Under the pieces are notes generated by a model. It made no database searches. It had not been told where the DNA came from and saw only the letters and a list, made by a program, of their open reading frames with translations. A program made the position numbers and the translations under genes. Below are positions 4,538-44,228 of a DNA stretch of 64,000 bases, in pieces. The stretch lies in assembly GCF_030684315.1 (NCBI RefSeq), contig NC_081357.1:22615204-22679203 (forward strand), in the 5' to 3' direction. This DNA comes from Stegostoma tigrinum. Its lineage: Eukaryota. Position 1 is the first letter of the stretch, and every line of letters starts with the position of its first letter.

Positions 4538-4749
4538 GAGATAACAAGGTGTAGAGCAGGATGATCACAGCAGGCCAAGCAGCATCATAGGAGCAGGAAA
4601 GCTGACATTTCAGGCCTAGACCCTTCTTCAGTCAAGGCCCAAAATGTCAGCTCTCCTGCTCTTATGATGCTGCTTGGCCTGCTGTGTTCATCCAGCTCCA
4701 CACCCTGTTATCTCAGATTCTCCAGCATCTGCAGTTCCTACTGTCTATG
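4538..4749 (+). mobile_element. Fold-back Penelope pseudo-LTR mini-element (family A)
   Basis: Inverted arms gagataacaagg... and ...ctgttatctc (4538-4714) plus a 35-nt tail. Flanked by gatgaggaa at 4529-4537 and 4750-4758. Confidence 0.85.
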
Positions 4750-5000
4750 GATGAGGAATAATTCAATCAGAGAGTAGTGAGCCTGTGGAATTCTCTGCCA
4801 CAAGAAACTATTGGGGCCAGTTCATTAGCTAGATTCAAGAGGAAGTTGGATGTGATCCTTGGGGCTAAAGGGAACAAGGGATGTGGGGAGAGGATGGGAA
4901 TAGGATATTGAAATTGCATGAGCAGCCATGATATATTGAATGGTGGTACAGGCTCAAAGGGCCATGTGGCCTATTCCTGCATTTATTTTCTATATTTCTA
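4750..5000 (+). mobile_element. CR1 LINE 3' end
   Basis: cagagagtagtgagcctgtggaattctctgccaca...ggcctattcctgc...tttctat, the usual CR1 ORF2 end and 3' UTR. Confidence 0.8.
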
Positions 5001-5004
5001 TAAC

Positions 5005-5470
5005 GGGGATGCCTGGGCCAATAGTCTGAAGATAGGTGTTCAAATCCCACAATGGCAGTTAAACTTAAACTTACTTAAAAGAGTAAAATGTGGAACTCAA
5101 AGACGGAACTAGAAATAATAACCACAAATTTAGCAGGTTGTTGCTAAAAACGGAACAGAAGCAAAAAAAACCCAGTCATTAATGTTCTTGAGAGAAGGAA
5201 ATCTATTGTTCTGGAACAAAAACAAAGTCGCTGGAAAATTTCAGCAGGTCTGTGAAGGAAAAAACAGAGTTAACATTTTGGGTCCGGTGACCCTTCCTCA
5301 TAACAGGACCCGAAACGTTAACTCTGTTTTTTCCTTCATAGATGCTGCCAGACCTGCTGAGCTTTTCCAGCAACTTCTGTTTTTGTTCCTAATTTACAGC
5401 ACCCGCAGTTCTTTGCGTTTTTAATCTATTGATCTGACGCAGTCTCCCCTACCTGTGACTCCAGGCCCAT
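5005..5470 (+). mobile_element. SINE family B interrupted by a fold-back mini-element
   Basis: ggtgttcaaatcccac head and agaaggaaatct, resuming after 5422 with cctacctgtgactccag. Confidence 0.65.
5214..5422 (+). mobile_element. Fold-back Penelope pseudo-LTR mini-element (family B)
   Basis: Inverted arms ggaacaaaaacaaagtcgctggaaaa... and ...ttttccagcaacttctgtttttgttcc plus a 33-nt tail. TSD aatctattg(t/a)tctg at 5200-5213 and 5423-5436. Confidence 0.85.
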
Positions 5471-6139
5471 TCCAAACTGCTGTGAATTTTCCTGCAGAAT
5501 GCACGAGCCAAACATCTGCAATTAACTGTGAAGCACTGGGTGTGCTACCATCCATATGTTCAAATTGTGTTGGTTCTTTAGGGGCTTATGTGGTTGCATG
5601 TGTGTGAGGATAGCCGCCTTGTGTTCTAATGAGAAGAGTCCTGTAATCTTTTTATTACATGTCTGCAACTGATGACATGCTACAGCATAGACCCGGCCTG
5701 ACTATTGAGGCTGTGAGGAGAAACATTAGCTCCAGGTCCATTTCCAATAGGTTCCTTCTCTACTCTCTCACGAGACATCATCAGACTGGTGCTATTGCAC
5801 TCAAATAAGTACTAACTCTCCAGACACATATACAGTAGTTCGACAGCAGGGTGGCAACGTCACTTTCTCAAGGGTGAGAAATGTTAGTCTTCCCACTGAA
5901 ACCCACATTGTGTAAATAAACGAACACAGAAATCCTTCAAAATCCATTCAAGGTGAAAGGGAAGAAAAAAAATCAACGTATATTTTCTGATAATCACAAG
6001 CATCTACTCACAGTTAGAAGTTAGAGCTACAGTTATCCAGTTGGGTGATGTACCTAACCCTAACTCCAGAACTCCTATAGAACACAATCCAATCTAGATG
6101 CTTCACAGTTCGTAGGGAATCTAATCTAATCTAAATGCA

Positions 6140-6565
6140 CTTCCCAAGACTGCAAGAAACTGCAGAGAGTTGTGAACACAGCCCAGTCCATCACACAAAC
6201 CAGCCTTACATCCATTGACTCCATCTATACTTCCTGCTGCCTTGGGAAAGCATCCAGCAAAATCTAAGACCCCTTTGACGCCCGTTATACTCTATTTCAC
6301 CCTACACCATCAGGCAGAAGATACAGAAGTTTGAACACATGCACAAACATATTCAAGAACAGCTTCTTTCCCTCTGTTTTCAGGCTTCTGAACAGACCTT
6401 TCAAATGCTAATTCTGATCTCTCTCCCCCTGCTCCTTCTTTACAGCCGTAAGACTGTATTCTGCTACCCTGATGAACTTTGTGTGGTGCGGTCTGCCTGT
6501 ATAGCACGCAAAACAAGGCTTTTCATTGTATCTTGGTACATGTGACAACAATAAATCCATCAATC
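6140..6565 (+). mobile_element. Rex1/Babar-like LINE 3' end
   Basis: Translates QDCKKLQRVVNTAQSITQT...PSGRRYRSLNTCTNIFKNSFFPSVFRLLN, a typical Rex1 ORF C-terminus, and ends aataaatc(aatc). Confidence 0.8.
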
Positions 6566-6604
6566 ATCCTCCCAGGCTCCATGCCCCTATCCCCTTTCCT
6601 CAAC

Positions 6605-6745
6605 ACAATGCTGCCAAAGGATCACTGGACTTGAAACCTTAGCTCTGTTTTTCTCTCTACAGATGCTGCCATACTTGTCAGGCTTCTCTAGAATTTTCTG
6701 CCCTTCCTGCAGATTTCCAGCATCAGCAGTTCTTTGTTTTGTGTT
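6605..6745 (+). mobile_element. Solo degenerate Penelope pseudo-LTR (family B)
   Basis: ggatcactggacttgaaac...agatgctgcca...atttccagcatcagcagttcttt aligns with 5290-5422. Confidence 0.65.
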
Positions 6746-7689
6746 TTTTTTTGTTTTACGCATTGCTTTCACCTTGTTGCTTGTGACAGATCCTGTTCCA
6801 TCGGTACTGAGCACCCTTTCACAGCTCACCTTCCCTTTAATGTGTAAGTTGGTGACTAGTGAGAGAGGCACTGCTGGTACTGTTCAGATACTCATGTTTC
6901 TAACGGGGGGGGAGGGGGGAGAGGGGATTTTATTGATTACAAGGGGGGGGGGGGTCTTAGCCGATTCTTCCCTCCAGAGTTAAAGTGGTGAGGAGACTGC
7001 AGCGTTAAATGCCATGACCTGAGCTCGGGTCAACTAACTGGGATGGCGTTTGGGACATGGCAAGTTGACAGTAAGGCCCAGGCGTTTGTTGTGCCTCACT
7101 GAGCCACTGAAGGCTCCGTCATATCTATCTGACTTGCTGATCAGGGAAAAAACATTTTAAGAGTTTTGTTAAAGTATTCGCCCTCTTTAATTTTCCCAGC
7201 AAGTTCCCTCACTTTCCAGAACATGTTGATTCCTGTGAGGACGTAGTTACGTAACATGCAGACCGTTGTTTGAAAGCCGTTTGTCGGGTGATGCATCGTT
7301 CATACGTGAACTGGACAGTGTGAAAGCTATTTAATTGTTAGGCTGTGCTGCAACTGAATGTCAACAATGTCTACAGACACACGCAGTGTTTATATCAGTG
7401 ATTACTGATTAAAAGCAGGAACCCTGGATCTCCTCTCCTTTCTCTAAAGCCACACACATTGCTGAAAATCCAAAGATCTCAGCACATCTTATGGCAAGTG
7501 CTGAACAGAAGTGCAACATGTAGTGTCCCTACCCGATGAGCCAGGAGGCCTCCCTCTTTTAGTGCTGTGCTGTATTTAACGGCTTAGAATAGAGCAAGGA
7601 GTGTCTTCAGTGTGTATGGCTCAGCTTAACACTGAACAGTTTATTCAACACTCAATCATTGGGGAATCCTTTTTATAAATGGCTTTGAA

Positions 7690-8178
7690 AGACAGTGGCC
7701 ACGGGCTTCACTGTAACATCACAGAGAGCACAAAGTCACTTCTGTACTTCTCTGTTTAGTTCTACGATATCTGTGACTTGTGACTGTAACCACCAGACAG
7801 TGCTGAGAGTTGGCCCAAGACTAAAAGCAGAACTGTGCTTACTTTTTGTGTTTCCTCCTCTCCCACGTTATTCATATCTTGTCTCTTTGCGCATATGTCC
7901 ATAAGTGTACAGGAACTTTAAAAGGGGTAGAGTATAAGTTATAGAGTTATAAGTTACCAGTTTGTTTCTTCCTCATCAATGATTGAAGCTGTTTGATTAC
8001 AATAAATGATGAGGTTCTTGTTAATGATATGAACCAAGTTTGAATATTCTTCTAATTTGATTTTGATAGTTAAGTAAAATTGGGAAATTCAGTCCCCTAA
8101 TCAAATTTTCATATCTGTGACAGATCTGAGAAGAGTGGGGCTCTATTTCCGGAGCCCTATCCCAAGGAATCATGACAG
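7690..8178 (+). mobile_element. LTR-like fragment (Gypsy type)
   Basis: Resembles 48300-48620, has AATAAA, and ends ...ggaatcatgaca. Confidence 0.35.
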
Positions 8179-8451
8179 TAGGAATTCTGTGATAAATGAG
8201 CCACCTCCTGATTTCTCAAAGCCTCAAACAACAAGGTACAAGTCAGGTGTGTGATGGGATATTTTCTGTGTACCTTGATTAGTGCAGCTCCAACATCATT
8301 AAGGAAGCTCGACATCATCCAGGGTAAAGCAGCCCAATAAATCAGCAAATACCTAACATTTTCAACACTCACTTCTTTCACTATGGACACTCAGCAACTC
8401 TACTATCTACCATGGACAAGATGACAGACAATAACGCACCAACCAACTCAG

Positions 8452-8545
8452 GGGTTCTTATGGCACAGTGCTAGTGCCCTTTTCAGTGAGCCAGCAGATC
8501 TGCATTCAAGTCCCCCACTACTCCCAGGAGTAAGTTACATAAGGG
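8452..8545 (+). mobile_element. Short tRNA-derived SINE, family C
   Basis: gggttcttatggcacagtgctagtg...tgagccag...ttcaagtccc. Related copies at 18460-18570 and 7520-7552. Confidence 0.55.
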
Positions 8546-8589
8546 AGAGCCTTCCTGTACAGGGTGATCAAAGGGCAGCTGTCCAAGGA

Positions 8590-9155
8590 GCCAGGGAGAC
8601 CACACTGGGAGTATTGAGAACAGTTTTCATCCCCTCATTTAAGAAGAAAAATCATTTCATTGAAAGCAGTTCAGAGATATTTACTGGGATGATCCCTGGC
8701 ATGGAGAGATTGTCTTTTGAGCAAAGGCTAAAAACGTTGAAATGCTACTTGCTGGAGTTTCAAAGAATGAGAGTTGATCTTGTTGAAACTAGTTGGATTC
8801 TTAAGGGGCTTGATAAGGTAAAAGCCGAGAGGATATTTCCTCCTATGAGAGAGTCTAGCACGAGAGGGGGTAGTCTCAGAATTAATGGGTGCTAATTTAA
8901 GACTGATATGGGAATGAATTTCTTCTCTCAAAGGGTTGTGGGTCTTTGGAACTCCTTGCCACAGAGAGCTGTATGGATAAATTCCCTGTGTATATTTAAG
9001 GCTGAGATAGATAGATTCTTGATCAATCGGGGAATCAAGCGTTTATGGAGAAATGGCAGGAAAGTCGACGTAGGGAATGTTGAATCCTATTGGATGGCAG
9101 AGCAGGCTTGAGGGGCTGAATGGCCTACTCCTTTACCTATTTCTTATGGTTTTAA
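8590..9155 (+). mobile_element. CR1 LINE 3' fragment
   Basis: ORF track FTGMIPGMERLSFEQRLKTL and FFSQRVVGLWNSLPQRAV. Tail gggctgaatggcctactcc...ttcttatgg. Confidence 0.9.
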
Positions 9156-9507
9156 AGTCCCTTCCACGGCACTTTCCAATCTGCAACCACTGACATCTGT
9201 AAGGACAAGAGAAGCAGATACATGGGAAGACCACCAATAGTAAGTGCCCTTCCAAGCCACTCAACATCCAGACAAGCTCACTGGTACATTCAATGTCACT
9301 GGGCTAAAGTTCTGTAACTCCCTGCCTAGCACCATTTTAGGTGTGTCTACATCGTGTGGGCTGCAGGAGTTTTAGAATGCAGCTCACCCTTACCTTCTGC
9401 AGGGCCATTAAGATTGAGGAATGCAAGCTGTTTGGCCAGCCATGCAGGTAGGGCTTGACATCACCTCAACCATGAAATGAGAACTTCCCCTGTGTGCTTT
9501 TGTGGGA

Positions 9508-9835
9508 ATGGTGACAACAGAATGGAACTGTCACTGGGTTAGTAATACAGAGGACCAAACTGATGCTCCGAGGGTTTTTGTTCAAATCTGTTAAATAAAA
9601 TGAACCAAGTGTGGAATTGAAGGCTAGTTTTGATAATGCTGATTATTAACTTACCTTTGATTGCTGTTTTAGAAAAGATTCTGTATCACAATGTCCTTTA
9701 GGGAAGGAAGTCTGCCCCCTCACCTGGTCTGAACTACATATATCTCCAAATCCACAGTAACTGCCCTATGAAATAGCCAGATGAGGGGATGAGCAGCAAA
9801 TGCTTCCCTTACTACCTGGAAGAATAAATATAAAA
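9508..9835 (+). mobile_element. SINE family B
   Basis: gttcaaatc, tgtcctttagggaaggaagtctgcc...cctggtctg. Confidence 0.7.
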
Positions 9836-10194
9836 TATAGAGGCATGAGTTAACTGCTTTCCTGTTAACAGGTTAAAGTTATTTTAATTTTCATTCAAAG
9901 TGTGAGTATTTGAGTAGATTTACTAAATTCATTAAGATACTGCAAAAAGGGATAGTCGGAGTTGTGCATATGCAGGGAAATTCTCTGGATTCCACTGATT
10001 CTCTGGAGTGGTTTTCAATGGAAACTTTGGGGTATCGGCATTAAGTACTTTGTGCCATTTTTACCCAGGATCTGTTGGCTGAGTTTTGTTGCAAGCCATT
10101 AACGTAACCCACAGTAAAGATTCCAGTGTGAACATGTCGTAGTTCAGTTTGTGGCTGGGCTGTTTAGTGTCTGCCATCTGTAAGATGTGCTACA

Positions 10195-10622
10195 GAAATT
10201 CACCAAACGCTCCTTATACAGCACCTGCCAAGCCCATGATCACTTCCACATAGAAGGGCACATGGGAACACCAGCACCTGCAAGTTTCCCTCCAACCACT
10301 CACCATCCTGGCAGAGAAATATATTGCCATTCCTTCTCTGTTGCTGGGTCAAAATTGTGGAACTCCATTCCGGAAAGTTTGAGGAAGGGTCACCGACTCG
10401 AAACGCTAACTCTGTGTTTTCCTTCATAGGTGCTGCCAGATCTGCTGAGCTTTATCAGCAACTTTGTTTTTCTTCCTTGCTTTTCATCCCTGAAGTTGGT
10501 AGGTATACCTACAGCACTTGGATAGCTATGGCTCAAGAAGGCACCTCGAAGGAGTAACTAGGGATGAACATTAAATATTAGCACAACCAGTAAAGTCCAC
10601 GTCCCATGAGTGAATAAAAACA
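10195..10622 (+). mobile_element. LINE family 2 3' end with a pseudo-LTR insert at ~10372-10480
   Basis: catgggaacaccagcacctgcaagtttccctcc...gctgggtcaaaa...tcccatgagtgaataaaaa. The insert reads tgaggaagggtcaccgactcgaaacg. Confidence 0.75.
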
Positions 10623-10634
10623 AAGCTCCCTAAC

Positions 10635-10928
10635 CAGAAACTCAGCTCATGTTCTGGGGGCGCCTGGGTTTGAATCCTGCCATGGTGGATGGTGGAATTT
10701 GAATTTATTTGAAAAACAAAATCCTGGAGTTAAGGGCCCAATGATGGCCATGAAACTAGTGTTGACTCTTAGGCAAACCCATCTGGTTCTTTGGGAAGGA
10801 AAACTGCCAAGCTTACCTGGTCTGGCCCACATGAGAATCTAGGCTCTTAACTACCCTTTGGGCAATTAGGGCTGGGCAATAAATGCTGGCCTAACCAGAG
10901 ACCCTGGCATCCTGTCAACGAATTAAAC
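10635..10928 (+). mobile_element. SINE family B
   Basis: gggtttgaatcctgccatgg, gggaaggaaaactgcc, tail gggcaattagggctgggcaataaatgctggcc. Confidence 0.8.
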
Positions 10929-10985
10929 TTAAGGCTACACTCTGGTGTGACCCTAATGGAGCGTAACGCTCCTAATAGAGTGATG

Positions 10986-11446
10986 TTGGGAGGAAGTTTA
11001 CAGCCATCTTGTGGGTTTGAAGATGTGATGGGGGGGTGTGGGTGGGGAAGGAAGAACGCGTAAAATGCAGCGCATGGCTTTCCTGCTCTCTGGCTCCCCA
11101 CTTTGACTGATTTTCCATTTTATTTTGGGGGGGGGGGGTGCTGGTGTTGGTCATTGAAGGAGTCAGAAACCACTCACCTCACTGCAGCCTGCCAATAGAC
11201 CTCATTAATACTGTTAGCAGTACTCGCCATCATTAGCTCCAGTGGCCACTGCTGGAACCTGGCATTGCTAAAACAACAGAGCTATTGACCAATCTGATTG
11301 CCTGGCAGCTCAGCTCTCTCTAGTGGTGGAAACCATCACCTTAGCCAATTAATGCCCTTCTGAATATTAAATGGCTGCAGGGCAGTCGATATGGGGTGTT
11401 CAGATGATGTGGTGGGAAATCTTGCCTTGTAAAAAATCCTCCCCAA
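10986..11446. mobile_element. MITE-like non-autonomous DNA transposon (possibly PIF/Harbinger type)
   Basis: Imperfect terminal inverted repeats ttgggaggaagtttaca (10986) and tgtaaaaaatcctccccaa (11428-11446), no ORF. Confidence 0.45.
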
Positions 11447-11449
11447 TGA

Positions 11450-12505
11450 CTGTTCAACATAAACTGAAGAGGCCTATCTTCTCTCGAAAACAGTTTGTGT
11501 AAAAGATCTCACTGCACTCTGGTGAAGTGGAGCTTACCTTCGACTCCCAGCCAATCTCCCTCAAAGAGCACTAAGACAGATAATCTGGTCATTATCACAT
11601 TGCTGTTCTTGGAGTCAATAAACTTGGAGTGGGAAAGCACAGCAAGTCAGATAGCACCTGACAAGTGGGAATGTCAATATTTCGGGCCAAAACCCTTCAA
11701 CAGGACTGGGGAGGGGGAAGGGAACCCAGAAATAAATGGGGGCAGGGCTGGGCTTGGGGGAGGACAGGTGAGATGGAAGTAGGTGCATGCAGGTAGGGGG
11801 TTATGGTGGTTGGTTAGTGGGAAGGGTAGGGAGGATAAGTGAGTCAGGAATTGGACAGGTTGGGTGAGGAGTGATTTTGAAACTGGTGAAGTCAATATTC
11901 AGGCCATTACAATGTAAGCTCCCAAGGCGAAATACGAAGTGTTGTTCCTCCAGTTTACATTTGACCTCATTCTGACAGTGGAGGAGGCCAAGGATGGGCA
12001 TGTCACCAGGGGTGTGGGAGGGGGAATTCAAGTGGATGGCAAATGGAAGGTCAAGTTAGTTGGTGCATGCAGAGTGCAGATGCTGTGCAAACCAATCCCT
12101 GGATCTGTGTTTGGTCTCCCCAGTACAGAGGAGGCCACTTCGGGAGCAATGGATTCGGTAGATGAGGTTGGATGAAAGTGCAGGTGAATCTCTGTTGGAT
12201 TTGGAAGGTTTGTCTGGGGCCTTGGGTGGAGGTGAGAGGGGATGTGTAGGGTCAGGTGTAGCAGCTCCTGCGGTTGCAGGGAAGGGTACTGGGTGCGGTG
12301 GGGAAGTTGGTGGGGTGTGTAGAGTGGACAAGGGAGTCACGGAGTGAAAGGTCTCTGCCCCCAAGTTGATGCTTTCGGAGCTTACTTTACATGTATTAGT
12401 TTTAATTAATGTAATGTTACATTCATTACATTGCAACAGTTGTTGTACTTCAGAGTAAGGCTTCATTGACCATACGGTGCTTGGAGATGTCCTGAGAGAT
12501 GAAGT
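11450..12505 (+). mobile_element. Deu-domain SINE (SacSINE1/AmnSINE1-like) split by a Penelope insertion
   Basis: tgtaaaagatctcac...acagataatctggtcattatcacattgctgtt (11450-11610). Resumes ~12420 with ttacattgcaacagt...tacttcaga...cttcattg...gatgtcctgag. Confidence 0.6.
11612..12360 (-). mobile_element. Penelope-like element 3' remnant (GIY-YIG endonuclease + pseudo-LTR)
   Basis: ORF track SNLIYRIHCSRSGLLCTGETKHR...FAQHL and LGLLHCQNEVKCKLEEQHFVFRLGSLHCNGLNIDFTSF, homologous to 28921-29738. Confidence 0.85.
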
Positions 12506-15085: not shown

Positions 15086-15089
15086 TGTA

Positions 15090-18448: not shown

Positions 18449-18459
18449 AAAAGTAGTTT

Positions 18460-27865: not shown

Positions 27866-27986
27866 GTGATAATGGGAACTGCAGATGCTGGAGAATCCAA
27901 GATAACAAAGTGTGGAGCTGGATGAACACAGCAGGCCAAGCAGCATCTCAGGAGAACAAAAGCTGACGTTTCGGGCCTAGACCCTT
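27866..27986 (-). mobile_element. Solo Penelope pseudo-LTR (family A), truncated inside the hammerhead core
   Basis: Near-identical reverse complement of 29911-30028. Confidence 0.85.
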
Positions 27987-28660: not shown

Positions 28661-28920
28661 TCCTCACACAACCCAGTCAGTTAAAGTCTTCCAGTCTGAA
28701 AATGCCCTGTGTGGGGACATTGAGAGCCTGGAGAAAGTGAGAACAAATGGACGGGTATGGATGCGTTTAGAACACATAATGTAGACTCTCTGGAAGCAGG
28801 CTGCACCAGACGAGAGTGCATTGTTCTCTCAGGGAGATACACAGAGAGCAGATGGACATGAACATATAAAGAAAACAGATTAATCATTACCAGAAGTAAT
28901 AATAGAATCAGAACCCCGCA

Positions 28921-29738
28921 GTGGTTGAGAACGCCCTTGACCTTGGCTCCTGCATTTCCCGCAACACATCCCTCACACCCCTCCCCCACCATAACCGCGC
29001 TAAGAGAATCCCCCTCATCCTCACATACCACCCCACCAACCTCCTGATACAACGCATCATCCTCCGAGACTTCCACCATTTACAATCCGACCCCACCACC
29101 CAAGACATTTTTCCATCCCCACCCCTGTCTGCTTTCCGGAGAGACCACTCTCTCTGTGACTCCCTTGTCCACTCCACACTGCCCTCCAACCCCACCACAC
29201 CCGGCACCTTCCCCTGCAATCGCAGGAAGTGCTACACTTGCCCCCACACCTCCTCCCTCACCCCCATGCCACGCCCCAAGATGACTTTCCACATCAAGCA
29301 GATCTTCACCTGCACATCTGCCAATGTAGTATATTGTATCCATTGTACCCGGTGTGGCTTCCTCTACATTGGGGAAACCAAGCGGAGGCTTGGGGGCTGC
29401 TTTGCAGAACACCTCCGCTCGGTTCGCAACAAACAACTGCACCTCCCAGTCGCAAACCATTTTAACTCCCCCTCCCATTCTTAGACAACATGTCCATCAT
29501 GGGCCTCCTGCAGTGCCACAATGACGCCACCCGAAGGTTGCAGGAACAGCAACTCATATTCCGCTTGGGAATCCAGCAGCCCAATGGTATCAATGTGGAC
29601 TTCACAAGCTTCAAAATCTCCCCCTCCCCCACTACGTCCCAAAACCAGCCCAGCTCGTCCCCACCTCCCTCACCTGTCCTTCCTCTCACCTATCGCCTCC
29701 TCCCACCCCAAGCCGCACCTCCATTTCCTACCTACTAA
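28921..29738 (+). pseudogene. Penelope RT-linker + GIY-YIG endonuclease, one frameshift near 29480
   Basis: RIPLILTYHP...CNRRKCYTC...FTCTSANVVYCIHCTRCGFLYIGETKRRL...EHLRSV...PVANHFN, then MSIMGLL...RRLQEQQLIFRLGIQQPNGIN in another frame. Confidence 0.9.
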
Positions 29739-29900
29739 CCTCACCCCACCTCCTTGGCCTGTCCGTCCTCCCCGGACTGATCTATCCCCTCCCCACCTCC
29801 CCACCTATACTCACCTCTCCACCTATCTTCTCCTCTATCCATATTCGGTCTGCCTCCCCCTCTCTCCCTATTTATTCCAGAACCGTCTCCCCATCCCCCT

Positions 29901-29934
29901 TTTCTGATGAAGGGTCTGGGCCCGAAACGTCAGA
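29901..29934 (+). ncRNA. Minimal type I hammerhead ribozyme motif in the Penelope pseudo-LTR
   Basis: CTGATGA (29904-10), stem II gggtc/ggccc, GAAAC (29924-28), GTC cleavage triplet (29929-31). Helix III is the palindrome ACGT and helix I is very short. Confidence 0.7.
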
Positions 29935-30940
29935 TTTTGTACTCCTAAGATGCTGCTTGGCCTGCTGTGTTCATCCAGCTTCACACTTTATTATCTTGGA
30001 TTCTCCAGCATCTGCAGTCCCCATTATCTCAGAACCTGGTATATGTATGGTTCACATATATGGTATTATTTAGTATCTATATCTAATGACTAGTTTCTTT
30101 GAAGTCAAAGCATGAAAATAGTTCTTGACTTTGCCTTCTCCTCAACCAACACATAGTGAGGCAGCAGTCTGTGCATTGTATCAGATTACCACCAAGTCCA
30201 TAAGAACTTACATTCCCAAATCAGGAGCACAGAATCAGGGAAATTCCCAGCTCGGCAGTTCGGCAAGTACGAGCTGTCTAATAGCTGCCCAGCTGAACAG
30301 TGCAATTGGATAAAAGGGCTGCTCATGATTATATTGGCTGTCCCGAAGCAGCATGACAAGCATAAAGAGATGTCAGATGGCACAGCTATGGAGACGGTCG
30401 CATCCTGGTACCATGGGCTGCTAATGATATTCTCCATTAACTCAGGTTATTATTATACCCCAGGAGATGCCTCATTACATGTCTCATGGCCCTTCGCTCA
30501 GCTGCCTGACCTCTTGTCGCTCATCGATTGGCGTATGCCCACTGAACTGAGGCTTGACCAGATCCCCCACAGTTGCATAGTGACATTGCACAGCAGTCAG
30601 ACTCAGAGCAAACTGGTAAATGGCCAGGAGCACCATCATCTCAGAGTGACAGCAATGAAAGCCAGGCTCTACAGTATTTGCTTTAATTGACTGAGATATA
30701 GAAACACGGTTGGTGCATGTCGTGTCACCAATGTGTGAGGACGATACCAGACTGCTTGTTACACAATTTTATGGCCAGAATGTTACACCAGAAGAAAGTG
30801 CAAAATGAGTGGGAGTTTCAGGAGAATCATCTCCAGGTGAGGAGTTGCGAGGCAAAGATCTCCTATCCAGTCAGTCAGAAGCACAAATAAGCTGTAGCAA
30901 GAAATCTCAGCAGCAGATAGTGTCTCAGGTACACATAGAA

Positions 30941-31146: not shown

Positions 31147-31437
31147 AGACAATGCCCACAGTTAGCTATGGATTTCGAGGCAGGAAATGTACCCCAATCT
31201 GTTGCTTTTGGCGCAGTGATTTGTTAAGCACAAGCACTCGAACGTCAGGGTGTTGGTTAACATATGCACCCTGCAGCCTAAGGAGCACGATTTGGCACGA
31301 ACCTCTCACGTAGCACTGAGGACTACTCCTATAAGTGGACACGATACAGAAGTGAATACTCAAAGGGATACCACAACACGTTACAGAGATTTCCCCAAGG
31401 CTGGATCATACTTCAGCTAGCATCATTTCACCAACTC

Positions 31438-32715
31438 AGTGTCACCTCAGCCCCTCCTCCCACCACCCAGCGTCACCTCACCCCCCTCCTCACACTGCCC
31501 AGCATCACCTCACCCCTCCTCCCACTGCCCAGTGTCACCTCACCCCCTCCTCCCACGGCCCAGTGTCACCTCACCCCTTCCTCCCACGGCCCAGTGTCAC
31601 CTCACCCCCCTCCTCCCACTGCCCAGTGTCACCTCACCCCTTCCTCCCACTGCCCAGTGTCACCTCACCCCCTCCTCCCACTGCCCAGTGTCACCTCACC
31701 CCTTCCTCCCACTGCCCAGTGTCACCTCACCCCCTCCTCCCACGGCCCAGTGTCACCTCACCCCCCTCCTCCCACGGCCCAGTGTCACCTCACCCCCCTC
31801 CTCCCACTGCCCAGTGTCACCTCACCCCTTCCTCCCACGGCCCAGTGTCACCTCACCCCCCTCCTCCCACTGCCCAGCGTCACCTCACCCCCTCCTCCCA
31901 CGGCCCAGTGTCACCTCACCCCCCTCCTCCTACTGCCCAACGTCACCTCAGACCCTCCTCCTACTGCCCAGCGTCACCTCACCCCCCTCCTCACACTGCC
32001 CAGCGTCACCTCACCCCCCTCCTCACACTGCCCAGCATCACCTCACCCCTCCTCCCACTGCCCAGTGTCACCTCACCCCTCCTCCCACTGCCCAGTGTCA
32101 CCTCACCCCTCCTCCCACGGCCCAGTGTCACCTCACCCCCCTCCTCACACTGCCCAGCGTCACCTCACCCCCTCCTCCCACTGCCCAGTGTCACCTCACC
32201 CCTTCCTCCCACGGCCCAGTGTCACCTCACCCCCCTCCTCACACTGCCCAGTGTCACCTCACCCCTTCCTCCTACTGCCCAACGTCACCTCAGACCCTCC
32301 TCCTACTGCCCAGCGTCACCTCACACCCTCCTCCCACCACCCAGCGTCACCTCACACCCTCCTCCCACCGCCCAGCGTCAGCTCACACCCTCCTCCCCCC
32401 GCCCAGTGTCACCTCACCCCCTCCTCCCACTGCCCAGTGCCACCTCACCCACACCAGGCCTCCTCACCAGCCTCCACCGTGGCTCACCTCACCGGATTCC
32501 ACCCAGTACCACCTCACCCAACCCGGGTCACCTCACCAGCCCCCATCCTTTGTCACCTTGCCCACCCAGTGCCACCTTGCCCATGCCAGGCCACCTACTG
32601 CCCCCCACCCTGGGTCACGTCACCAGCCCCTACCCCGAGTCGCCTCACCAGTCCTGACCAGTGTCACCTCGCCCACCCTGGGTTACCTCGCCCACCCAAG
32701 GTTACTTCACCCCTC
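31438..32715. repeat. C-rich minisatellite, 30-32 bp unit CACTGCCCAGTGTCACCTCACCCC(C)TCCTCC, about 30+ copies, degenerating after ~32450
   Basis: Tandem units read directly. The unit has no stop codon, so all three + frames are open. Confidence 0.95.
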
Positions 32716-33039: not shown

Positions 33040-33340
33040 GCAACTGAGAATTAGGGGAACTGCTTCAAAATAAGGTGTCTCCCAATTAAGTGATAATAGG
33101 ACTGATGAAGTGTCTAGGCCCAAAACGTTAGCTTTCCTGCTCCTAAGATGCTGCTTGACCTGCTGTGTTCATCCAGCTCTACACCTTGATATCTCGGTGT
33201 CTCCCAATTAAGATGAAGATGAAGGCCAATTTCATTTCTGAGACATTCATTCATGTTTAGAATCCTTTACTCAAGATAGCAGTGGAGGCTTGGTCAATAA
33301 CTATATTAAATACATTCAACGCCAAGTTAGATTCTTGATC
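33040..33340 (+). mobile_element. CR1 3' fragment carrying a pseudo-LTR insert
   Basis: tgagaattaggggaac...aaaataagg...ttaagatgaagatgaagg...gcagtggaggct. Confidence 0.6.
33091..33195. mobile_element. 105-bp internally deleted pseudo-LTR mini-element (family A) with 17-bp TSD
   Basis: ggtgtctcccaattaag at 33074-33090 and 33196-33212 flanks tgataataggactgatgaagtgtctaggcccaaaacgtt...gatatctc. Confidence 0.85.
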
Positions 33341-33567: not shown

Positions 33568-33692
33568 TGTCACCTGATGAAGCAGCAGTGCTCCGAAAGC
33601 TTGGGATTTCAAATAAACATGTCAGACTGTAACTTGGTGTCATGTGACTTCTGACTTTGCCCACCCCAGTCCAGCTATGTCACCTCCATATC
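33568..33692 (+). mobile_element. Penelope-type pseudo-LTR (family C) with hammerhead-like core
   Basis: cacCTGATGAagcagcagtgctccGAAAgctt...aaataaacatgtcagactgtaacttggtgtc. A reverse copy lies at 45765-45850. Confidence 0.65.
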
Positions 33693-35560: not shown

Positions 35561-35699
35561 ATACTAACAGATGTTCTGCCTGAATTCCATCTGGATCAAA
35601 TGGTTCTAGGTCGTATTTCAGCTTTGAATCAAATATGGAAAGGGAGGGGCTGAATTTAAAAGTTAAAGAACTACTCATTACATGAAGGCAATATTTAAT

Positions 35700-36875: not shown

Positions 36876-37817
36876 TACTGTTTCACTCATGTTTGGAAGT
36901 GCAAGAGGATGCAGCTGTGGCCCCCATTTTAGTTGCAGAGTAAAAGCTTACTCATGAAACACTGGCAAATTTGTGCTGATTATATAACCAATCGACTGTT
37001 CTACTCTCAAGGACAATACTTAATCCAGCTTTCAGCTTCATCAGTTCTAAAGCCTTGCAGTATCATATTTCAAATCTTATTGAAGAACTCTGAGCTCCCC
37101 TCCCAACCTCTGGTGGAATCAATTTTTTTTAATACGCCCAACATAGCCCAATAAAGTGTTCACATCGAGGATTCTGTAACAGCAAAATCATTTTCCAAAG
37201 ACATTGAAGTAGTGAGTGCCCTTCATAAATAATTGCTCAATTTAATCTTATTAGAAATTCTCCCTCCACTGGCAGTATTCAAATCTAACTACTAAAATTA
37301 GCTAATTGCATTTGCTCCTCTTGAAGCAGGACAATAAATTAAAAAAGAAAGACTGGGCAGGAGGATAAGAATTAAGCCAATAAACTGAAATAACTTGTTT
37401 ACAAAATTGCAGCAAAGAAGCACTGATGGGTAGCTAAAGCCTGGCAGTGCTTTACACTGATGAATTTACTGGTGATATTTAATTGAATGTCCTTGCTGAT
37501 GACTTCAAGTTGACAGTAAATGATGTGCTTATCATATATTCTACCAAAAGAGCCTGAGAAACAAGACATTCATTTGGAAAGCACACCGCATGTGGCTGCA
37601 GGATGCACACTCACAGTCACAAGTGTAGTTCTATCATTCACCTTGATTCATGAGATTTTTATGAGGAGGGTAAGTTTCAGACTGTCAGGTCTTAAGATCT
37701 TATAGATGTGGTAATTCATTTTGTTTATCAACTATGTCACAGCCTTCCAGTTTCCAATGGCACTGAGCTAAGGCATCCTATCGGGACATCACTAATGATC
37801 AAACCAATATTGAAGTT

Positions 37818-40800
37818 TACAGAATCTTGACAGGGCTGAAAAAGGCCATTTGGCCCATCATGTCTGTGCCTACCCTCCAAAGAGCATCCTGCCCAAACCC
37901 AGCACCCTACTTATTCCCATAGCCCCCATTTTACCTGGCTAATCCGTCCAGCCTGCGTATCCCTGGATACAATGGGCAATTTAGCATGGCCAATCCACAT
38001 AACCTGTGTGTCTTTGGATTGTAATAAAGACCATAAGACATAGGAACAAAAACTAGGACATTCAGCCCATCGAGTCTGCTCCACTATTCAATCATGGCTG
38101 ATAAGTATCCAAAATCCATTCTCCCACTTTTTCCCCATAACCCTTGATCCCCTTGATAATCAAGAACCTGTCTATCTCAGTCTTAAATGTACTCAATGAC
38201 CTGGCCTCCACAGCCTTCTGTGGCAGTGAACTCCAGAGACTCACCACTCTCAAGCTTTAGAAGTTTCCCCTTATCTCCATTCTAAAAGGTCTTCCCTTTA
38301 CTCTAAGGCTGTGCCCTCGGGTCCTAGTCTCTCCTACCAATAGAAGCATCTTCCCAACATCTACTCTGTACAGGCCATTCAGTATTCTGTAAGTTTCAAT
38401 TAGATTTCCCTCTCATGCTTCTAAACTCCAATGAGTATAGTCCCAGAGTCTTCAAACATTCCTCAAGTGTTAAGCTTTCCATTCCTGGGATCATTCTCGT
38501 GAACCTCCTCTGAACCCGCTTCAGGGCCAGTGCATCTTTGCTGAGATATCGGGCCCAGAACTGCACACAATGTTCCAAATGAGGCCTGATTGGAGCTTTA
38601 TAAAGCCTCAGTAGTACATTCCTGCTTTTATATTCAAGTCCTCTCAAAATAAATGCCAACATTGCATTTGCCTTCCTGACTACTGACTCAACCTAGAACT
38701 AGAACTCCCAAGTCTCTTTGCACTTGAGACTTCTGAATTTCTCCCCATTTAGAAAAGATTTTATTCTTCTTACCAAAGTGCATGGCATCACACTTTCATA
38801 CTTTGTACTCTATCTGCCACTTTTTACCCATTCTCCTAACCAAATCCTTCTGCAGCCTCCCTGCATCCTCAATACTACCTGTCCTTCCACCTATCTTTGT
38901 ACCATCTGCAAACTTAGCCAGAATGCCCTCAGTTCCTTCATCTAGATCATTAATGTATAAAGTGAAAAGTTGTGGTCCCAACACTGACACTAGTGAAACA
39001 TTACTTGTCACCGGCTGCCGTCCTGAGAAAGACCCTTTTAACCCCACTCTCTGCTTTCTGCCAGACAGCCAATCTTCTATCCATGCTAACACCTTGCCTC
39101 TAACACCATGGGCCCCTATCTTACTCAGCAGCCTCCTGTGTCGCCCCTTGTCAAATGTCTTCTTGAAGTCCAGGTAGATAACATCCATTGGCTCTCCTTG
39201 ATCAAACATGATCATTACTTCCTCAAAGAATTCTAACAGATTTGTCCAGCATGACCGCTCCTTCATGAAGCCATGCTGAGTTTGCCCTATTTTATCATGC
39301 ACTTCCAAATATTCAGAAATCTCATCCTTCATAATGCACTCTAAAACCATATCCTTGAACAAGGTTAGGCTGAGGTAATTTTCAGTCTTTTGCCTTACTT
39401 CCTTTTTAAACTGGGGTGTCACATTAGCCATTTTCCAGTCCTCTGGGACCCTTCCCAACACTAATGATTTCCAGAAGGATCACCGCTAATATCTCCACTA
39501 TCTCTTCCGCTATTTCCTTAAGAACTCTGGAGTGTAGTCCATTGGGTCCAGGTTATTTATTCACCTGAAAGCCATACAGTTTTTCTAGCACCTTCTCCTT
39601 GATGATAGCCACCATACTCAGCCCTGCCCCCAACTGTCACAAATTTTTGGGATTTTACTTGTGTCTTCCACTGTGAAGACTACCACAAAGTAGCAATTCA
39701 GTTCCTCAGCAATTTTCTTGTTCCCCACTACTATCTCTCCAGCAATGTTTTCAAATGGTTCAATGTCCATTTTTGCTTCTCTTTTGCCCTTTATAAGTTT
39801 AAAGAAACTCTTACAACCCTCCTTTATATTACTGGTTAGCTTAGCCTCATATTTAATCTTCTCCCTCCTTATTTCTTTTTTTGTTGCCCTCTGTCAGCCT
39901 TTGTAAGCTTCCCAGTCCTCTGGCTTCCCACTGCCCTTCGCCACATTATATGCTTTTTCTTTTGCTTTCATGATATCCCTGACTTCCTTAGTCAGCCATG
40001 GTTGCCTCATCCTCCCTGTACCATGCTTCTTTTTCCTAGGGATGAATTTTTGCTGCGTCTCCTGAATTACTTCCAGAAACTCCTGCCATTGCTGTTCCAC
40101 TGTCTTTCCGGCTAGGCTCCTCTTCCAGTCAATTCTGCCCAGCTCCTCCCTCATACCTCTGTAGTCGCCTTAATTTGGCTGTGATATCATTACCTCTGTT
40201 TCTACCTTCTCCCTCTGAAATTGCAGGGTAAATTCAATCATGTTATGATCCCTGCCTCCTAAGGGCTCCTTCACCTTAATCTCCCTTATCAGGTCTACCT
40301 CATTGCACAACACTAAATCCAGTATTGCCTGTTCCCTATTGGGAACAAACTACTCCAAAAAGACATCTTGTATACATTCCACAAGTTTCTTTTCTTGCAA
40401 CTCACTACCCACCTGGTTTTCCCAGCCCAGCTGCATATTGAAATCCCCACGATCACTGTGAATTTGCCTTTCTTACACACCTTTGCTAATCTCCTTGTGT
40501 ATCTTGCGCCCCAGTTCCTGATTCTTTTTACCTCTGCAGTTCCTCAACTCGACACAAACCGATTCTACATCATCTAACCCGACTTGATTACCATTGATTT
40601 AATTTCATTTCTTACTAGTAAGGCAACTCCAATCCCACTGCCCACCTGCTCATCTTTTCAATAAGATGTATATCCTTGGATATTCAGGTCCCAATCCTGA
40701 TTCCCGTGCAGCCACGTCTCCATGATGCCCACCATGTCATATCTGCCAATTTCAATCTGTGCCACAAGCTCATTGACCTTCTTTCTTATACTGTGTGCAT

Positions 40801-41088
40801 TCAGATGTAACACCTTCAGTCCTGTATTAACCATCCCTCTTCTCATTGTCACTCATTTATCCAGTGTGCTTGAAGTTTGATTCCTAACCCTTTCCAAATA
40901 CTCTGTCCTATTTGTGTCTGTGAGACATAATGACCTCAGGAGGAAACCAGAGCAACCTGGAGTGAACCTGCAAAGACATAAAGGGCTATGTGCAAACTCC
41001 ATCCAGACAGTCACCTGGGGGTGCACTTAAACCCAGGTCCATGGTGCTGTGAGGCAGTAGTGCTGACTACTGAGCCAGTGAGCCACCC
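37818..41088 (-). mobile_element. HE1 SINE split in two (37818-38022 and 40938-41088) by a CR1 LINE
   Basis: ...gtctttggattgt | aggaggaaaccagagc... rejoins the HE1 consensus (compare 1780-1806). Confidence 0.85.
38027..40930 (-). mobile_element. CR1 LINE (HER1-like) ORF2, 5'-truncated and decayed
   Basis: APE LHLNAHSIRKKVNEL...GIMETWL; RT QHGFMKERSCWTNLLEFFEEV, DVIYLDFKKTFDK, VLGPQLFTLYINDLD...KFADGTK; tail (cttatggt). Confidence 0.95.
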
Positions 41089-41311
41089 AGGCATTTTTGG
41101 GTGGAGAAAATGAGGTGTGATAATCCTTATATCAGAAATGTCAGCTAATTGTGACAGAAGATGAGATACTAGCCAGGAAACCTGGAAGGAGATCATCCAG
41201 TGTTTCAGGGCAATGTCCATTGTGCAATGATCCCAGTTGATGGCAATACTCAACAGGCCAGATCCCACAATGTAACGTGGCTTAATAAATGATATTATAT
41301 ATTATATATTT

Positions 41312-41508
41312 AAGCAAAAATAATCAAAGAACTGCAAATGCTGGAAAATAGAAACAGAAACAGAACTAGCTAGAAAGACTGAGCAAGTCTGGCAGCATCT
41401 TTGGACAGAAAGCAGTGCGAAAATTTCAGATCCAGTGACCCTTCTTCAGAAGTATTCAGATGCTGCCAGACCTGCTGAGCTTTTCCAGAAATTTATGTTT
41501 TTGTTTTG
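41312..41508 (-). mobile_element. Fold-back pseudo-LTR mini-element (family B), reverse orientation
   Basis: Tail aagaactgcaaatgctgga on the left; arms gtctggcagcatct and agatgctgccagac; minus-strand CTGAAGAagggtcactggatctGAAA. Confidence 0.75.
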
Positions 41509-42449
41509 TATCTAATTATGCAGTCGCTAATAAGATGATCAGTCACTGGAACATATTCACATAAGGCTGCAGATTTTAAAATTTATTGAAAAGAAAATGT
41601 ATGTGCATGTATGTACATGGAGGATAATTCTTAACAGAAGCGTCAAAGCAAAATTTCAACCTGTTCCCCAACAGAATCAGTTGCAGAGTTTCAATCCCAG
41701 AGAAACATGACACCTTTCTCAATTTCTAAAATATTTCCTGAACTAGTTTCCCTAAGTTTCAGTTTCTAGGAATGTGGAAGCAATTTTACAATTCCTTTCG
41801 GACATGGATGGGCATGAACCTCTCACAGTTCTGACGGCCTAAATATTCAGTTCTAACAACATGAAGATTTCTATCCAAACTCTCCTGGCTTAGAATGTTC
41901 ATGGACTAGAAACCACTTTTTTTGAGGTAGCTGGCTGCTCTGAACAGATCAAAACAATTTGGTTCTCCTCATAGAATCAATAATTGTTCTCTTCTGAAAT
42001 TAACTCTGAGTTCTTCTGAATAGAAATATTATGAAGTTCAATCCAAACTAATTGCCTCAGCGCATCAAATACTCAATAAGTTAAACAGTTTATCTATTAA
42101 TCCATTTCAGATACTCTGGTACACAAGTGAATGTAGACTCATGCATTCTCAAAAATGATACATTTATGTTACTGTTAAAATGGCTTTCTGAAAACAAAGA
42201 TTCTTCACAGAACAAACCAAACCACATGTGTCTCTTTTTTATTCAAATCCGAATTCCAAAAATGATAATAATGTTATACAGGTTTATCACAAGCGCTAGA
42301 AAGGATTGGAAGGAGAGGGAAAACAGAATTAATATTTACTGACCACTAAAAGGAAGAACAATGTGGGAGACTCACAGAGCCAATTTATCTTGTGTCAAAT
42401 TCTGGCATCAAAATTGACAGCTTACAGGTGGCAAATACAATCACTCCAT

Positions 42450-43120
42450 AGAAGAACAAAGACGCAAGAACAATGCAGCACGGGTACAGGCCTTTCGGCC
42501 CTCCAAGCCTGCACTGACACATTTTGTCCTTCCATACTAAAACTGCCTTCACTTACAGGATCCATATCTCTCTACTCCCTTCCTGTTTGTGTGTTCGTCC
42601 AGGTACTTCCTGAATGCCGCTATTGTGTCTGCTTCAACCAGCTCCCCTGGCAGCGCATTCCAGGCACACCCCACTCTTTGTGTGAAAAACATGCCTCGTA
42701 CATTTCTTTTATTTCCCGCCCCCACTCTTAGCACCTTGAACGTGTGCCCCCAAATAATTGACACCTCCACCCTGGGAAAAAGTCTCACACTGTCCACTCT
42801 ATCCATGCCATTTACAATCTTATGAACTTCTGTGAGATCATCCCTCACCCCCCGCTGCATTCCAGAGAAAATAAACCCATTGTATCCAAACTTCCTTCAT
42901 AGCTAAATTCCCCCTTACTAGGCAACATCCTGGTAAACCTTTTCTGTACCCTCTCCAAAGCATCCATATCTTTCTGATAGTCACAGAATCTTAGTGTAAT
43001 ACAGCTGGCCTTTCAGCCCAAACTAGTTCATGTTGACCATGGTGCCCACTCAGCTAGCTCTAATTGCCTGCATTTGGTCCAAATCCATCTTACCCCTTTC
43101 CAACCATATGCTTACCCAAA
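42450..43120 (-). mobile_element. Two adjacent CR1 3' fragments
   Basis: ORF track DLTEVHKIVNGMDRVD...FFTQRVGCAWNALPGELVEA. A second tail starts at ~42980. Confidence 0.85.
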
Positions 43121-43139
43121 TGTTTTTTTTTAAATGATA

Positions 43140-43447
43140 GAGAAGGGAATTCCCTCTGGTTATTGATCATTAGGATGGGATGCTGTTGGAATGAATGGGA
43201 TTGTACTTTTACTGTGTTTCAAAATCGTTAAATGTGTCTAATACTTAAATAGTTAATCTAGTTATCTTCATTTATTTAGTGTAAAAATTCTGTATTATTG
43301 TTAAAACTAAATCTACAGGCAACGTTCTATACCTGTGTTTCAGTGAATGATTCCATCATTCAAACAACATTAAGAAATACAGTCTACCAAGCCAGGTTTT
43401 AGACTGGGATGTGACTTGCCCAGGAACAATATCAGCTGGAATCATAA
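43140..43447 (+). mobile_element. LTR 3' fragment
   Basis: Similar to 16680-16815 (aaatct...gaatga...ctgggat.tga) and ends ctggaatcataa. Confidence 0.4.
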
Positions 43448-43449
43448 TG

Positions 43450-44228
43450 ATAACTCACCCCGACTCCCCAAAGCCTGTCCATCATCTAGAAGGCACAAGT
43501 CAAGTGGGCAATGGATTACTCCCCACTTGCCTGTACGAGTGAAGCTCCAACAACGTTCGAGAAACTTGACGCCATCCAGGACAAGATAACAAAGTGTGGG
43601 GCTGGATGAACACAGCAGGCCAAGCAGCATCTCAGGAGCACAAAAGCTGATGTTTTGGGCCTAGACCCTTCATCAGAGAGCTCTCTAATGAAGGATCTTG
43701 GCCCGAAATGTCAGCTTTTGTGCTCCTGAGATGCTGCTTGGCCTGCTGTGTTCATCCAGCCCCACACTTTGTTATCTTAGATTCTCCAGCATCTGCAGTT
43801 CCCATTACCCCCACCATCCAGGACAAAGCAGCCCACTTGATTGGCATCACATCCACGACCATTCAGTCTCTCCACCATCAAGTGCAGTGCATACCATGTC
43901 GCACATGTACTGCAGAAGCTCACCAAGGTTCCTTTGGCAACACCTTTCAAACCCAAGTCCACTATTATCTAGAAGGTCAAGACCAGTAGATACATGGAAC
44001 ACCGTCACCTGCAACTTCCCCTCCAAGCCACTCACCATCCTGCCTTGGAAATATATCCTTCACTGTCGCTGGGTCAAAAATGTGGAACTCCCTCCCTCAT
44101 GGTAGCCAACTGCAGCAAAAGGACTGCTGTGGTTCAAGAGGGCAACTCACCACCACCTTCTCAAGGCCAACCAGGGAAAGGCCAATAAAAACTGGCCCAA
44201 CAAATGAAGTCTGTGTCCCATAAATGAG
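43450..44228 (+). mobile_element. LINE family 2 3' end hosting a palindromic insert
   Basis: aaggcacaagtcaag...ccatccaggacaaagcagcccacttgattgg...ctcaccaccaccttctcaagg...aataaa. Confidence 0.85.
43585..43811 (+). mobile_element. Palindromic Penelope pseudo-LTR mini-element (family A)
   Basis: 98-bp arms (43583-43680 / 43681-43778) with no spacer, plus a 33-nt tail. TSD ccatccaggacaa at 43572-43584 and 43814-43826. Confidence 0.9.

What the first reader, a model, noticed from the sequence alone, without database searches (positions are those of the whole stretch)
4538..43811. Family of non-coding, hammerhead-bearing fold-back mini-retroelements derived from Penelope pseudo-LTRs
Seen: separate short inserts at 4538-4749, 5214-5422, 33091-33195, 41312-41508 and 43585-43811, plus solo arms at 6605, 10372, 27866, 33568, 45765 and 63945. 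They consist only of sequence identical (family A) or structurally analogous (families B and C) to the terminus of the GIY-YIG element at 29901-30028. Four have their own TSDs (9, 14, 17 and 13 bp). Three + orientation copies share one layout: inverted arm + arm + a one-sided 33-35 nt tail. Established: Penelope-like elements have pseudo-LTRs, often inverted, with a short tail and minimal hammerhead motifs. Inference: these are either a retrozyme/SINE-like non-autonomous class mobilised in trans, or a stereotyped extreme-truncation product of self-primed fold-back reverse transcription. At least three sequence families occur within 64 kb.
Basis: partly seen in the sequence, partly recalled or inferred. 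Interest (0 to 1): 0.7.

Follow-up and report, generated by a model that had tools for sequence, protein, structure and literature searches.

The report
Double-ended stubs of Penelope retrotransposons
These mirror-image inserts are real and very common, and they are the shortest products of ordinary Penelope-type jumping genes, likely built afresh at each insertion when both cut DNA strands copy the first ~100-130 bases of the element's RNA, so they are probably dead by-products that record how these elements insert, not a new mobile family.

Summary
The five inserts, six solo arms and four target-site duplications (TSDs) are real. 'Identical' is really 83-94%, and none of the five inserts keeps an intact hammerhead core. 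The arms are the pseudo-LTR (pLTR) of autonomous RT+GIY-YIG Penelope-like elements (PLEs). In 1.32 Mb sampled blind, family A gave 72 head-to-head pairs; 68 have one tailed (+126) and one tail-less (+92) arm, and 50 have 9-24-bp TSDs. Kilobase-long insertions share this layout. Junctions are nearly all different (51 kinds in 55 short pairs), and short and long copies carry the same sequence variants, so no separate short family was found. Either arm can be longer (28 vs 19), which argues against simple fold-back. Arm ends pile up about 4 nt before the hammerhead, 30 nt downstream of a TATA-like box, often with an extra G. Best reading (0.65): both target strands prime on one capped pLTR transcript and the two cDNAs join head to head. 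The layout is known; I found this mechanism in none of six literature searches. The scan noted the same feature before in other genomes (22 findings).

The parts
4538..4749 (+). Family A head-to-head insert: inverted tail-less arm 4538-4631 (0..+92) plus tailed arm 4631-4749 (+10..+126); 9-bp TSD at 4529-4537 and 4750-4758
5214..5422 (+). Family B head-to-head insert: inverted arm to about 5307, tailed arm from about 5303; 14-bp TSD (1 mismatch) at 5200-5213 and 5423-5436
6621..6736 (+). Old family B arm with tail, 72% identity, no TSD found
10376..10477 (+). Family B tail-less arm starting at -4, no TSD found
27866..27986 (-). Family A tailed arm (+6..+126), no TSD found
28914..30030 (+). 5'-truncated copy of the family A PLE: GIY-YIG end of the ORF, pyrimidine-rich region, pLTR and tail
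29869..29875 (+). TATA-like box (TATTTAT), at -34 in most long family A arms, 30 nt upstream of the preferred arm end; promoter function inferred
29904..29931 (+). Minimal type-I hammerhead core of the family A pLTR, with the extra base after A9 and a palindromic ACGT helix III; helix I only about 2 bp
   Evidence: features as in PMC4209133
33091..33195 (+). Family A head-to-head insert: 11-nt inverted tail stub 33091-33101 plus tail-less arm 33102-33195 (0..+92); 17-bp TSD at 33074-33090 and 33196-33212
33568..33680 (+). Family C arm with intact minimal hammerhead core at 33574
41312..41508 (-). Family B head-to-head insert: tailed arm 41312-41451 on minus, short tail-less arm 41457-41508 on plus; no TSD found
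43585..43813 (+). Family A head-to-head insert with both arms starting at -4; 13-bp TSD at 43572-43584 and 43814-43826
45761..45833 (-). Family C tail-less arm, 82% identical to the 33568 arm
63946..64000 (-). Family B tail-less arm end, cut by the window edge

Best explanation
The inserts are the short end of the normal insertion spectrum of autonomous Penelope-like retrotransposons, likely made anew at each insertion when both strands of a staggered cut prime reverse transcription on the element's RNA. SHOWN: each insertion has two fixed outer ends (+92 and +126), nearly always one of each, variable inner ends joined head to head, and a 9-24-bp TSD; kilobase-long ORF-bearing insertions have the same layout. 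INFERRED: the PLE protein (predicted to be a dimer) nicks both strands about 15 bp apart; one end primes at the +92 start site and the other at +126, usually on the same RNA or the same source; the two cDNAs are joined by end repair. INFERRED: the short class comes from capped transcripts starting at about -4, 30 nt after a TATA-like box, so the enzyme runs off the RNA 5' end after ~96 and ~130 nt or stops earlier; long copies would come from multimeric or circular RNA that has sequence upstream of -4. Short copies lack the TATA box and the leader downstream of the tail, so they are predicted to be dead on arrival and the hammerhead motifs to be passengers.
For: Blind 1.32-Mb sample (132 loci): 68 of 72 pairs have one tailed and one tail-less arm, 36 expected if random. 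TSD in 50 of 72 pairs vs 1% of 300 mismatched flank pairs; 40 of 58 short and 10 of 14 long. Lone arms of either end type carry TSDs (young: 11 of 26 tail-less, 7 of 25 tailed), so each end can prime alone. Same layout in long elements L100, L102, L105, L107, L114-L116. Tail-less arm longer in 28, tailed longer in 19, within 5 nt in 21 of 68. Long/short status is coupled: 55 both short, 12 both long, 1 mixed, p=2e-12. Arms of one insertion share 5 linked variants (66 of 89 identical, 7% mismatch vs 43% for random pairs). End rate 33 of 73 young arms at -8..+2, 0.041 per nt vs 0.002 just upstream; family B 33 of 105 arms. TATTTAT at -34 in family A long arms; TATAAA at -30 to -38 plus TCAGTT initiator-like sequence in family B long arms. 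All 7 of 7 true -4 ends in unselected DNA are preceded by G, and in 5 the other arm does not supply it; genome-wide G:A before -4 is 3792:1238. In vitro, the Anolis PLE extends both strands, starts at two sites that bound the tail, needs RNA downstream of the tail and is predicted to be a dimer (PMC11167929).
Against: No RNA evidence for a start site at -4. 0 of 15 copies that continue from the tail into the leader have their upstream pLTR ending at -8..+2 (7 end at +8..+105, 8 beyond -40), which a simple run-off on a unit-length mRNA would predict. The G before -4 is often ambiguous: among 30 selected loci at least 5 were point mutations in long arms and others were supplied by the inverted arm or the TSD. 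The only tested Penelope promoter (D. virilis) is internal and TATA-less (PMC2377424). In D. virilis an intron ends at the 5' edge of helix I (PMC4209133), a rival cause of the boundary; family B has an AG there, family A does not. Shared arm variants fit fold-back equally well, and only 2 of 89 pairs are clearly discordant, which gene conversion could also give. Several long pairs are nearly symmetrical (-635/-647, -467/-470), as fold-back would give. BLAST-defined ends are uncertain by a few nt.
Confidence: 0.65

Rival explanations
1. Self-primed fold-back: one cDNA, or an antisense RNA as Arkhipova et al. 2013 proposed, folds back and is copied, giving the inverted arm; the endonuclease then resolves the hairpin to leave a tail on one side.
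For: Arms of one insertion usually share variants (66 of 89); lengths are coupled and some long pairs are near-symmetrical; proposed in PMC3846280.
Against: Fold-back from the tailed cDNA cannot make the tail-less arm longer, yet it is in 28 of 68 pairs. At 33091 and L073 the tailed piece is only 11-25 nt and does not overlap the other arm. Both outer ends carry TSDs as lone arms. Two of 89 pairs differ at 4 of 5 linked sites. An antisense-template version is not excluded by the asymmetry alone.
Confidence: 0.14
2. Double priming is right, but the pile-up at -4 is a reverse-transcriptase stop at the edge of the hammerhead or pyrimidine tract, or a splice boundary, not a transcription start.
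For: The point coincides with the 5' edge of hammerhead helix I in A and B; the D. virilis intron ends there; 0 of 15 unit-spanning copies end at -4.
Against: TATA-like box at canonical distance in two divergent families; G before -4 in 7 of 7; no AG acceptor at this point in family A; 84,680 arms pass through the region unbroken.
Confidence: 0.13
3. A self-propagating non-autonomous family (SINE- or retrozyme-like): palindromic master copies are transcribed and mobilised in trans.
For: One exact junction (-4/-4) has 2349 arm matches genome-wide, at least ~1,175 loci. PLE-derived non-autonomous elements exist (bioRxiv 10.64898/2026.07.22.740005; PMC8557442).
Against: 51 distinct junctions in 55 short pairs. 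Short and long arms share the same six main haplotypes (84 and 63 arms), and the -4/-4 copies span several of them. The apparent diagnostic CTAATGA variant was search bias: 19 vs 2349 matches. Short copies lack the TATA box and leader. The RNA would be one ~95-bp hairpin that buries both hammerheads. A small subfamily hidden among ~140,000 copies is not excluded.
Confidence: 0.07
4. DNA-transposon MITE whose terminal inverted repeats resemble a pLTR.
For: Short, non-coding, inverted arms, high copy number.
Against: Variable 9-24-bp TSDs, one-sided tail, and direct continuity with RT+GIY-YIG ORFs.
Confidence: 0.01

Closest known systems
Insertion unit of EN+ Penelope-like elements (D. virilis Penelope, A. 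vaga Pen2a_Av; PMC3846280, PMC8557442, passages read)
   Same: Inverted 5'-truncated copy next to a direct pLTR, a 30-40-bp tail at one end, variable 8-10-bp or longer TSD, TATA and initiator-like motifs in the A. vaga pLTR.
   Different: Here most pairs (55 of 68) hold no ORF at all, reach about 44 per Mb for family A alone, and show a sharp preferred end at -4. The papers read explain the inversion by self-priming and the tail by endonuclease resolution.
Poseidon_Ac (PAc) of Anolis in vitro (PMC11167929, parts 1-2 of 4 read)
   Same: Two internal reverse-transcription start sites bounding the tail, both target strands cut and extended, predicted dimer, hammerhead not needed for insertion.
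   Different: PAc is Poseidon clade with its ORF starting in the hammerhead; family A has a CX4CxxC linker (Neptune/Nematis type) and its long ORF starts after the tail. That paper does not discuss head-to-head insertions (one unrelated use of 'inverted').
Minimal PLE hammerheads (PMC4209133, parts 1-2 of 4 read)
   Same: Extra base between positions 9 and 10.1, palindromic helix III, short helix I; pairs on opposite strands ~100-700 bp apart attributed to truncated PLEs.
   Different: Those pairs were not analysed as insertions; here the cores in the five inserts are broken.
Non-LTR retrozymes (bioRxiv 10.64898/2026.07.22.740005, parts 1-2 of 5 read)
   Same: Non-coding, PLE pLTR-derived, hammerhead-bearing.
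   Different: Retrozymes are direct tandem repeats with an intact hammerhead in each unit; these inserts are single inverted pairs. True tandem arrays of family A exist elsewhere in this genome (L176, L069) but are a different class.
L1 twin priming (recalled, not read here)
   Same: Second target strand primes a second cDNA, giving an inversion inside one TSD.
   Different: L1's two cDNAs copy different parts of the RNA and the second site is variable; here both copy the same region from two fixed sites.

Membership tests
EN+ Penelope-like element insertion | Parent with a single ORF, RT followed by C-terminal GIY-YIG endonuclease with CCHH | tested here: met
   1089-aa ORF in L099; RVT_1 E=2.9e-5 (below Pfam cut-off), GIY-YIG E=0.13 on the window fragment, motif read directly. 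Family B by upstream tblastn hits only.
EN+ Penelope-like element insertion | pLTR formed by partial tandem, inverted 5'-truncated copy, 30-40-bp one-sided tail | tested here: met
EN+ Penelope-like element insertion | Variable-length TSD | tested here: met
   50 of 72 pairs, 9-24 bp, mode 14-16
EN+ Penelope-like element insertion | Minimal type-I hammerhead motif in the pLTR | tested here: met
   Pattern present in parent arms of A, B and C; cleavage activity not testable
Neptune clade | CX2-5CxxC linker upstream of GIY-YIG | tested here: met
   CNRRKCYTC at residue 912 onward; also found in Nematis (PMC8557442)
Neptune clade | Placement in an RT phylogeny with reference PLEs | not tested
   No reference PLE proteins were fetched
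Non-LTR retrozyme | Direct tandem units, each with an intact hammerhead | tested here: not met
   Inserts are inverted pairs with broken cores
Non-LTR retrozyme | Circular RNA intermediate | not testable with these tools
   Only contigs were offered; no run on record as RNA
SINE-like non-autonomous family | Master copies with shared breakpoints and diagnostic variants | tested here: not met
   51 junction types in 55 pairs; haplotypes shared with long copies; A variant 19 vs 2349
SINE-like non-autonomous family | Own internal promoter | not testable with these tools
   Short copies lack the upstream TATA-like box; an internal promoter cannot be excluded
MITE | Fixed short TSD and symmetrical terminal inverted repeats | tested here: not met

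The most novel reading that the evidence does not exclude
Penelope elements use an LTR-like strong-stop step inside a target-primed reaction: both subunits start near the 5' end of a capped, pLTR-initiated RNA, run to the cap, and must jump together to the 3' pLTR to make a long copy. The hundreds of thousands of short palindromes are then failed strand transfers, which would explain the cliff at -4, the cap-like G and the all-or-none coupling of arm lengths (67 of 68 pairs).
Probability: 0.2. Interest if true: 0.7.

Novelty: new member of a known kind. Interest (0 to 1): 0.38.

Why it matters
How PLEs integrate, and why they carry an inverted copy and a one-sided tail, is still open; only one full PLE protein has been made to work in vitro. 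This genome holds an estimated 140,000 short family A pairs (44 per Mb x 3.2 Gb) and long open frames up to 1131 aa. Their junction statistics favour two-ended priming over the published self-priming idea and point to a precise start site, both testable with existing assays. For annotation, these repeats should be filed as PLE fragments, not MITEs, SINEs or ribozyme genes. As an element class it is not new.

Tried and rejected
Rfam scan: no hammerhead family hit among 19 weak matches. CTAATGA in the tailed arm looked like a short-copy marker in most of the top 30 hits but is 19 vs 2349 genome-wide: search bias. No clear pile-up of arm ends at the predicted hammerhead cut (+28): 3, 0, 5 and 3 ends at +28 to +31 among 285 arms, not tested statistically. 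The cluster of family B ends at +51/+52 is probably an alignment artefact of a variable linker. The -1 peak among old family A arms is partly reference divergence, so end rates use only the 119 arms at >=90% identity. Expression: no RNA holder listed; contigs laid cannot show RNA ends or strand, and I take no expression claim from them. A genome-wide count of upstream-pLTR ends could not be made; only 20 loci were read. No long parent with promoter region was found for family C in 1.32 Mb. One search fetched an unrelated paper (PMC2425469) by a wrong DOI; not used. Literature searches listed no paper describing these shark-type short palindromes or two-ended priming for PLEs; subscription papers such as Arkhipova 2006, Dalle Nogare 2002 and Repbase entries are outside the library, and no supplements were read, so prior description there is possible.
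Full report
Observation. All named inserts and solo arms are present. TSDs of 9, 14 (one mismatch), 17 and 13 bp were recovered, none for 41312-41508; 7 of 150 random window positions score as well. I number positions from the C of CTGATGA at 29904 (= 0). Family A arms match 29895-30030 at 83-94%. The hammerhead core pattern is intact at 29904 and 33574 only, of 14 arms inspected. The 33091 insert begins with an 11-nt inverted piece of the tail end, so it is a head-to-head pair too. The window lies at G000:C4:22615204-22679203 in a 3.2-Gb genome; its repeats look cartilaginous-fish-like to me (recalled, not tested).

Parent element. A search with the window's GIY-YIG fragment gave 222,783 candidates, 150 scored. 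Of 20 loci fetched around long frames, L099 and L100 hold a full 3,666-nt unit with an ORF of about 1090 aa that starts after the tail. [quoted passage not shown] No tree was made. Seven of these long loci show the same layout as the short inserts: one arm ending near +92, the other at +126, head to head. For family B, 7 of 104 arms have a same-strand GIY-YIG-region hit upstream; for C, 1 of 16.

Blind sample. I fetched 132 ten-kb stretches at round-number positions (1.32 Mb; 8 further requests did not exist). Family A gave 294 arm ends: 72 head-to-head pairs and 150 others. Outer ends cluster at +89..+95 and +124..+126. Of 72 pairs, 68 have one tailed and one tail-less arm (36 expected), 3 have none and 1 has two. 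TSDs: 50 of 72 pairs against 1% of 300 mismatched flank pairs, 9-24 bp, alike for short (40 of 58) and long (10 of 14) pairs. Short pairs run at 44 per Mb, about 140,000 genome-wide by extrapolation. Family B gave 17 pairs, 13 with one tail; C gave 4.

Is there a separate short family? The 55 short one-tailed pairs show 51 different junction combinations. Five linked variants give the same six main haplotypes in 84 short and 63 long arms. The top 30 hits to 43585-43811 seemed to share CTAATGA in the tailed arm, but that variant has 19 matches against 2349 for the normal form. The commonest junction (-4/-4) occurs on several haplotypes among 17 distinct loci read. The full palindrome folds into one ~95-bp hairpin (-180.8 kcal/mol, z -23). 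I find no sign of master copies, though a small subfamily could be missed in a 0.04% sample.

Fold-back or double priming? The tail-less arm reaches further upstream in 28 of 68 pairs, the tailed arm in 19, and 21 are within 5 nt (28 vs 19 not significant). Fold-back from the tailed cDNA allows only the second and third cases, and a tail-less cDNA cannot supply the tail. Tiny tailed stubs beside full tail-less arms occur (33091; L073), although only 2 of 74 lone tail-less arms showed one. Lone arms of both types have TSDs. Arms of one insertion usually share variants (66 of 89 identical at 5 sites; 2 differ at 4 sites; this set includes search-selected loci) and are long or short together (67 of 68). 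This fits two priming events on one RNA or one source. The Anolis PLE protein cuts and extends both strands, starts at two sites that bound the tail, needs RNA beyond the tail and is predicted to be dimeric (PMC11167929, parts 1-2 of 4 and passages). Shared variants and near-symmetrical long pairs also fit fold-back, and the antisense self-priming idea of PMC3846280 (passages) is weakened but not excluded.

Why so short? Among 119 young arms (>=90% identity; 9 of all 294 arms dropped at locus edges), 33 of the 73 that reach +2 end within -8..+2, 0.041 per nt against 0.007-0.009 downstream and 0.002 or less upstream. Family B shows 33 of 105. Long family A arms carry TATTTAT at -34; long B arms carry TATAAA at -30 to -38 and TCAGTT around -4. 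That spacing is the usual TATA-to-start distance (own knowledge); a TATA plus initiator-like pair was noted in an A. vaga pLTR, whereas the D. virilis promoter is TATA-less (PMC2377424 passages). All 7 true -4 ends in unselected DNA follow a G, 5 not supplied by the other arm; G precedes 11 of 16 ends at -6..-2 and 9 of 44 elsewhere, p=0.001. Genome-wide G:A is 3792:1238, but 30 G loci read individually were mixed. A copied cap is therefore suggested, not shown. Against a simple run-off: of 20 tail-to-leader loci, 15 continue into the leader and none of these has its upstream pLTR ending at -8..+2. I infer that long copies use multimeric or circular RNA, as proposed in PMC4209133. 84,680 arms pass through -11 unbroken.

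Comparison and verdict. The layout is the typical PLE insertion unit (PMC3846280, PMC8557442), and close opposite-strand hammerhead pairs were already attributed to truncated PLEs (PMC4209133). Retrozymes are direct tandems (bioRxiv 10.64898/2026.07.22.740005, parts 1-2 of 5), a test these inserts fail. Six searches listed no paper on two-ended priming of PLEs or on these short palindromes; supplements and subscription papers were not seen. The scan's earlier notes (22 findings in at least 9 genomes, 8 shown) reach similar readings; I had recorded mine before seeing them and took only the identifier PMC2377424. Verdict: new members of a known kind, useful as a dense record of PLE integration; interest 0.38.

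Noticed in passing
L176:4982-6182, L069:6766-8434, L293; further arrays in the list: Direct tandem mini-arrays of family A (units of 301 nt, about 447 nt; spacings of 166-363 nt) holding TATA-like box, intact hammerhead core, tail and leader, themselves arranged head to head. These fit the non-LTR retrozyme definition far better than the inserts of the finding.
   Followed up: partly
L019:1270-1724; joints table 5: Tail-to-tail dimers in which a +92 end abuts a +127..+132 end; possibly new copies inserting at the end of an older pLTR.
   Followed up: partly
L280, L281, L284, L292, L296, L121, L138: A minor third outer end near +142 to +145 (5 of 20 tail-to-leader loci).
   Followed up: partly
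window 11680-12356, minus strand: Older, more divergent PLE fragment (72% to family A) with a decayed hammerhead and a TATTT-like box about 34 nt upstream.
   Followed up: partly
L185, L074, L127, L181: A fourth hammerhead-bearing repeat family with a long stem II; the copies seen keep their upstream sequence.
   Followed up: no
L250: A family A arm inserted into the hammerhead of a family B arm, duplicating 10 bp of it.
   Followed up: no
window 38409-40225 and 54430-57227: Two related fragments with RT- and endonuclease-like frames, probably CR1/L2-type LINEs (from the translations; not searched).
   Followed up: no
window 31357-32466: 31-32-bp C-rich minisatellite of about 35 units giving long spurious open frames.
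   Followed up: no
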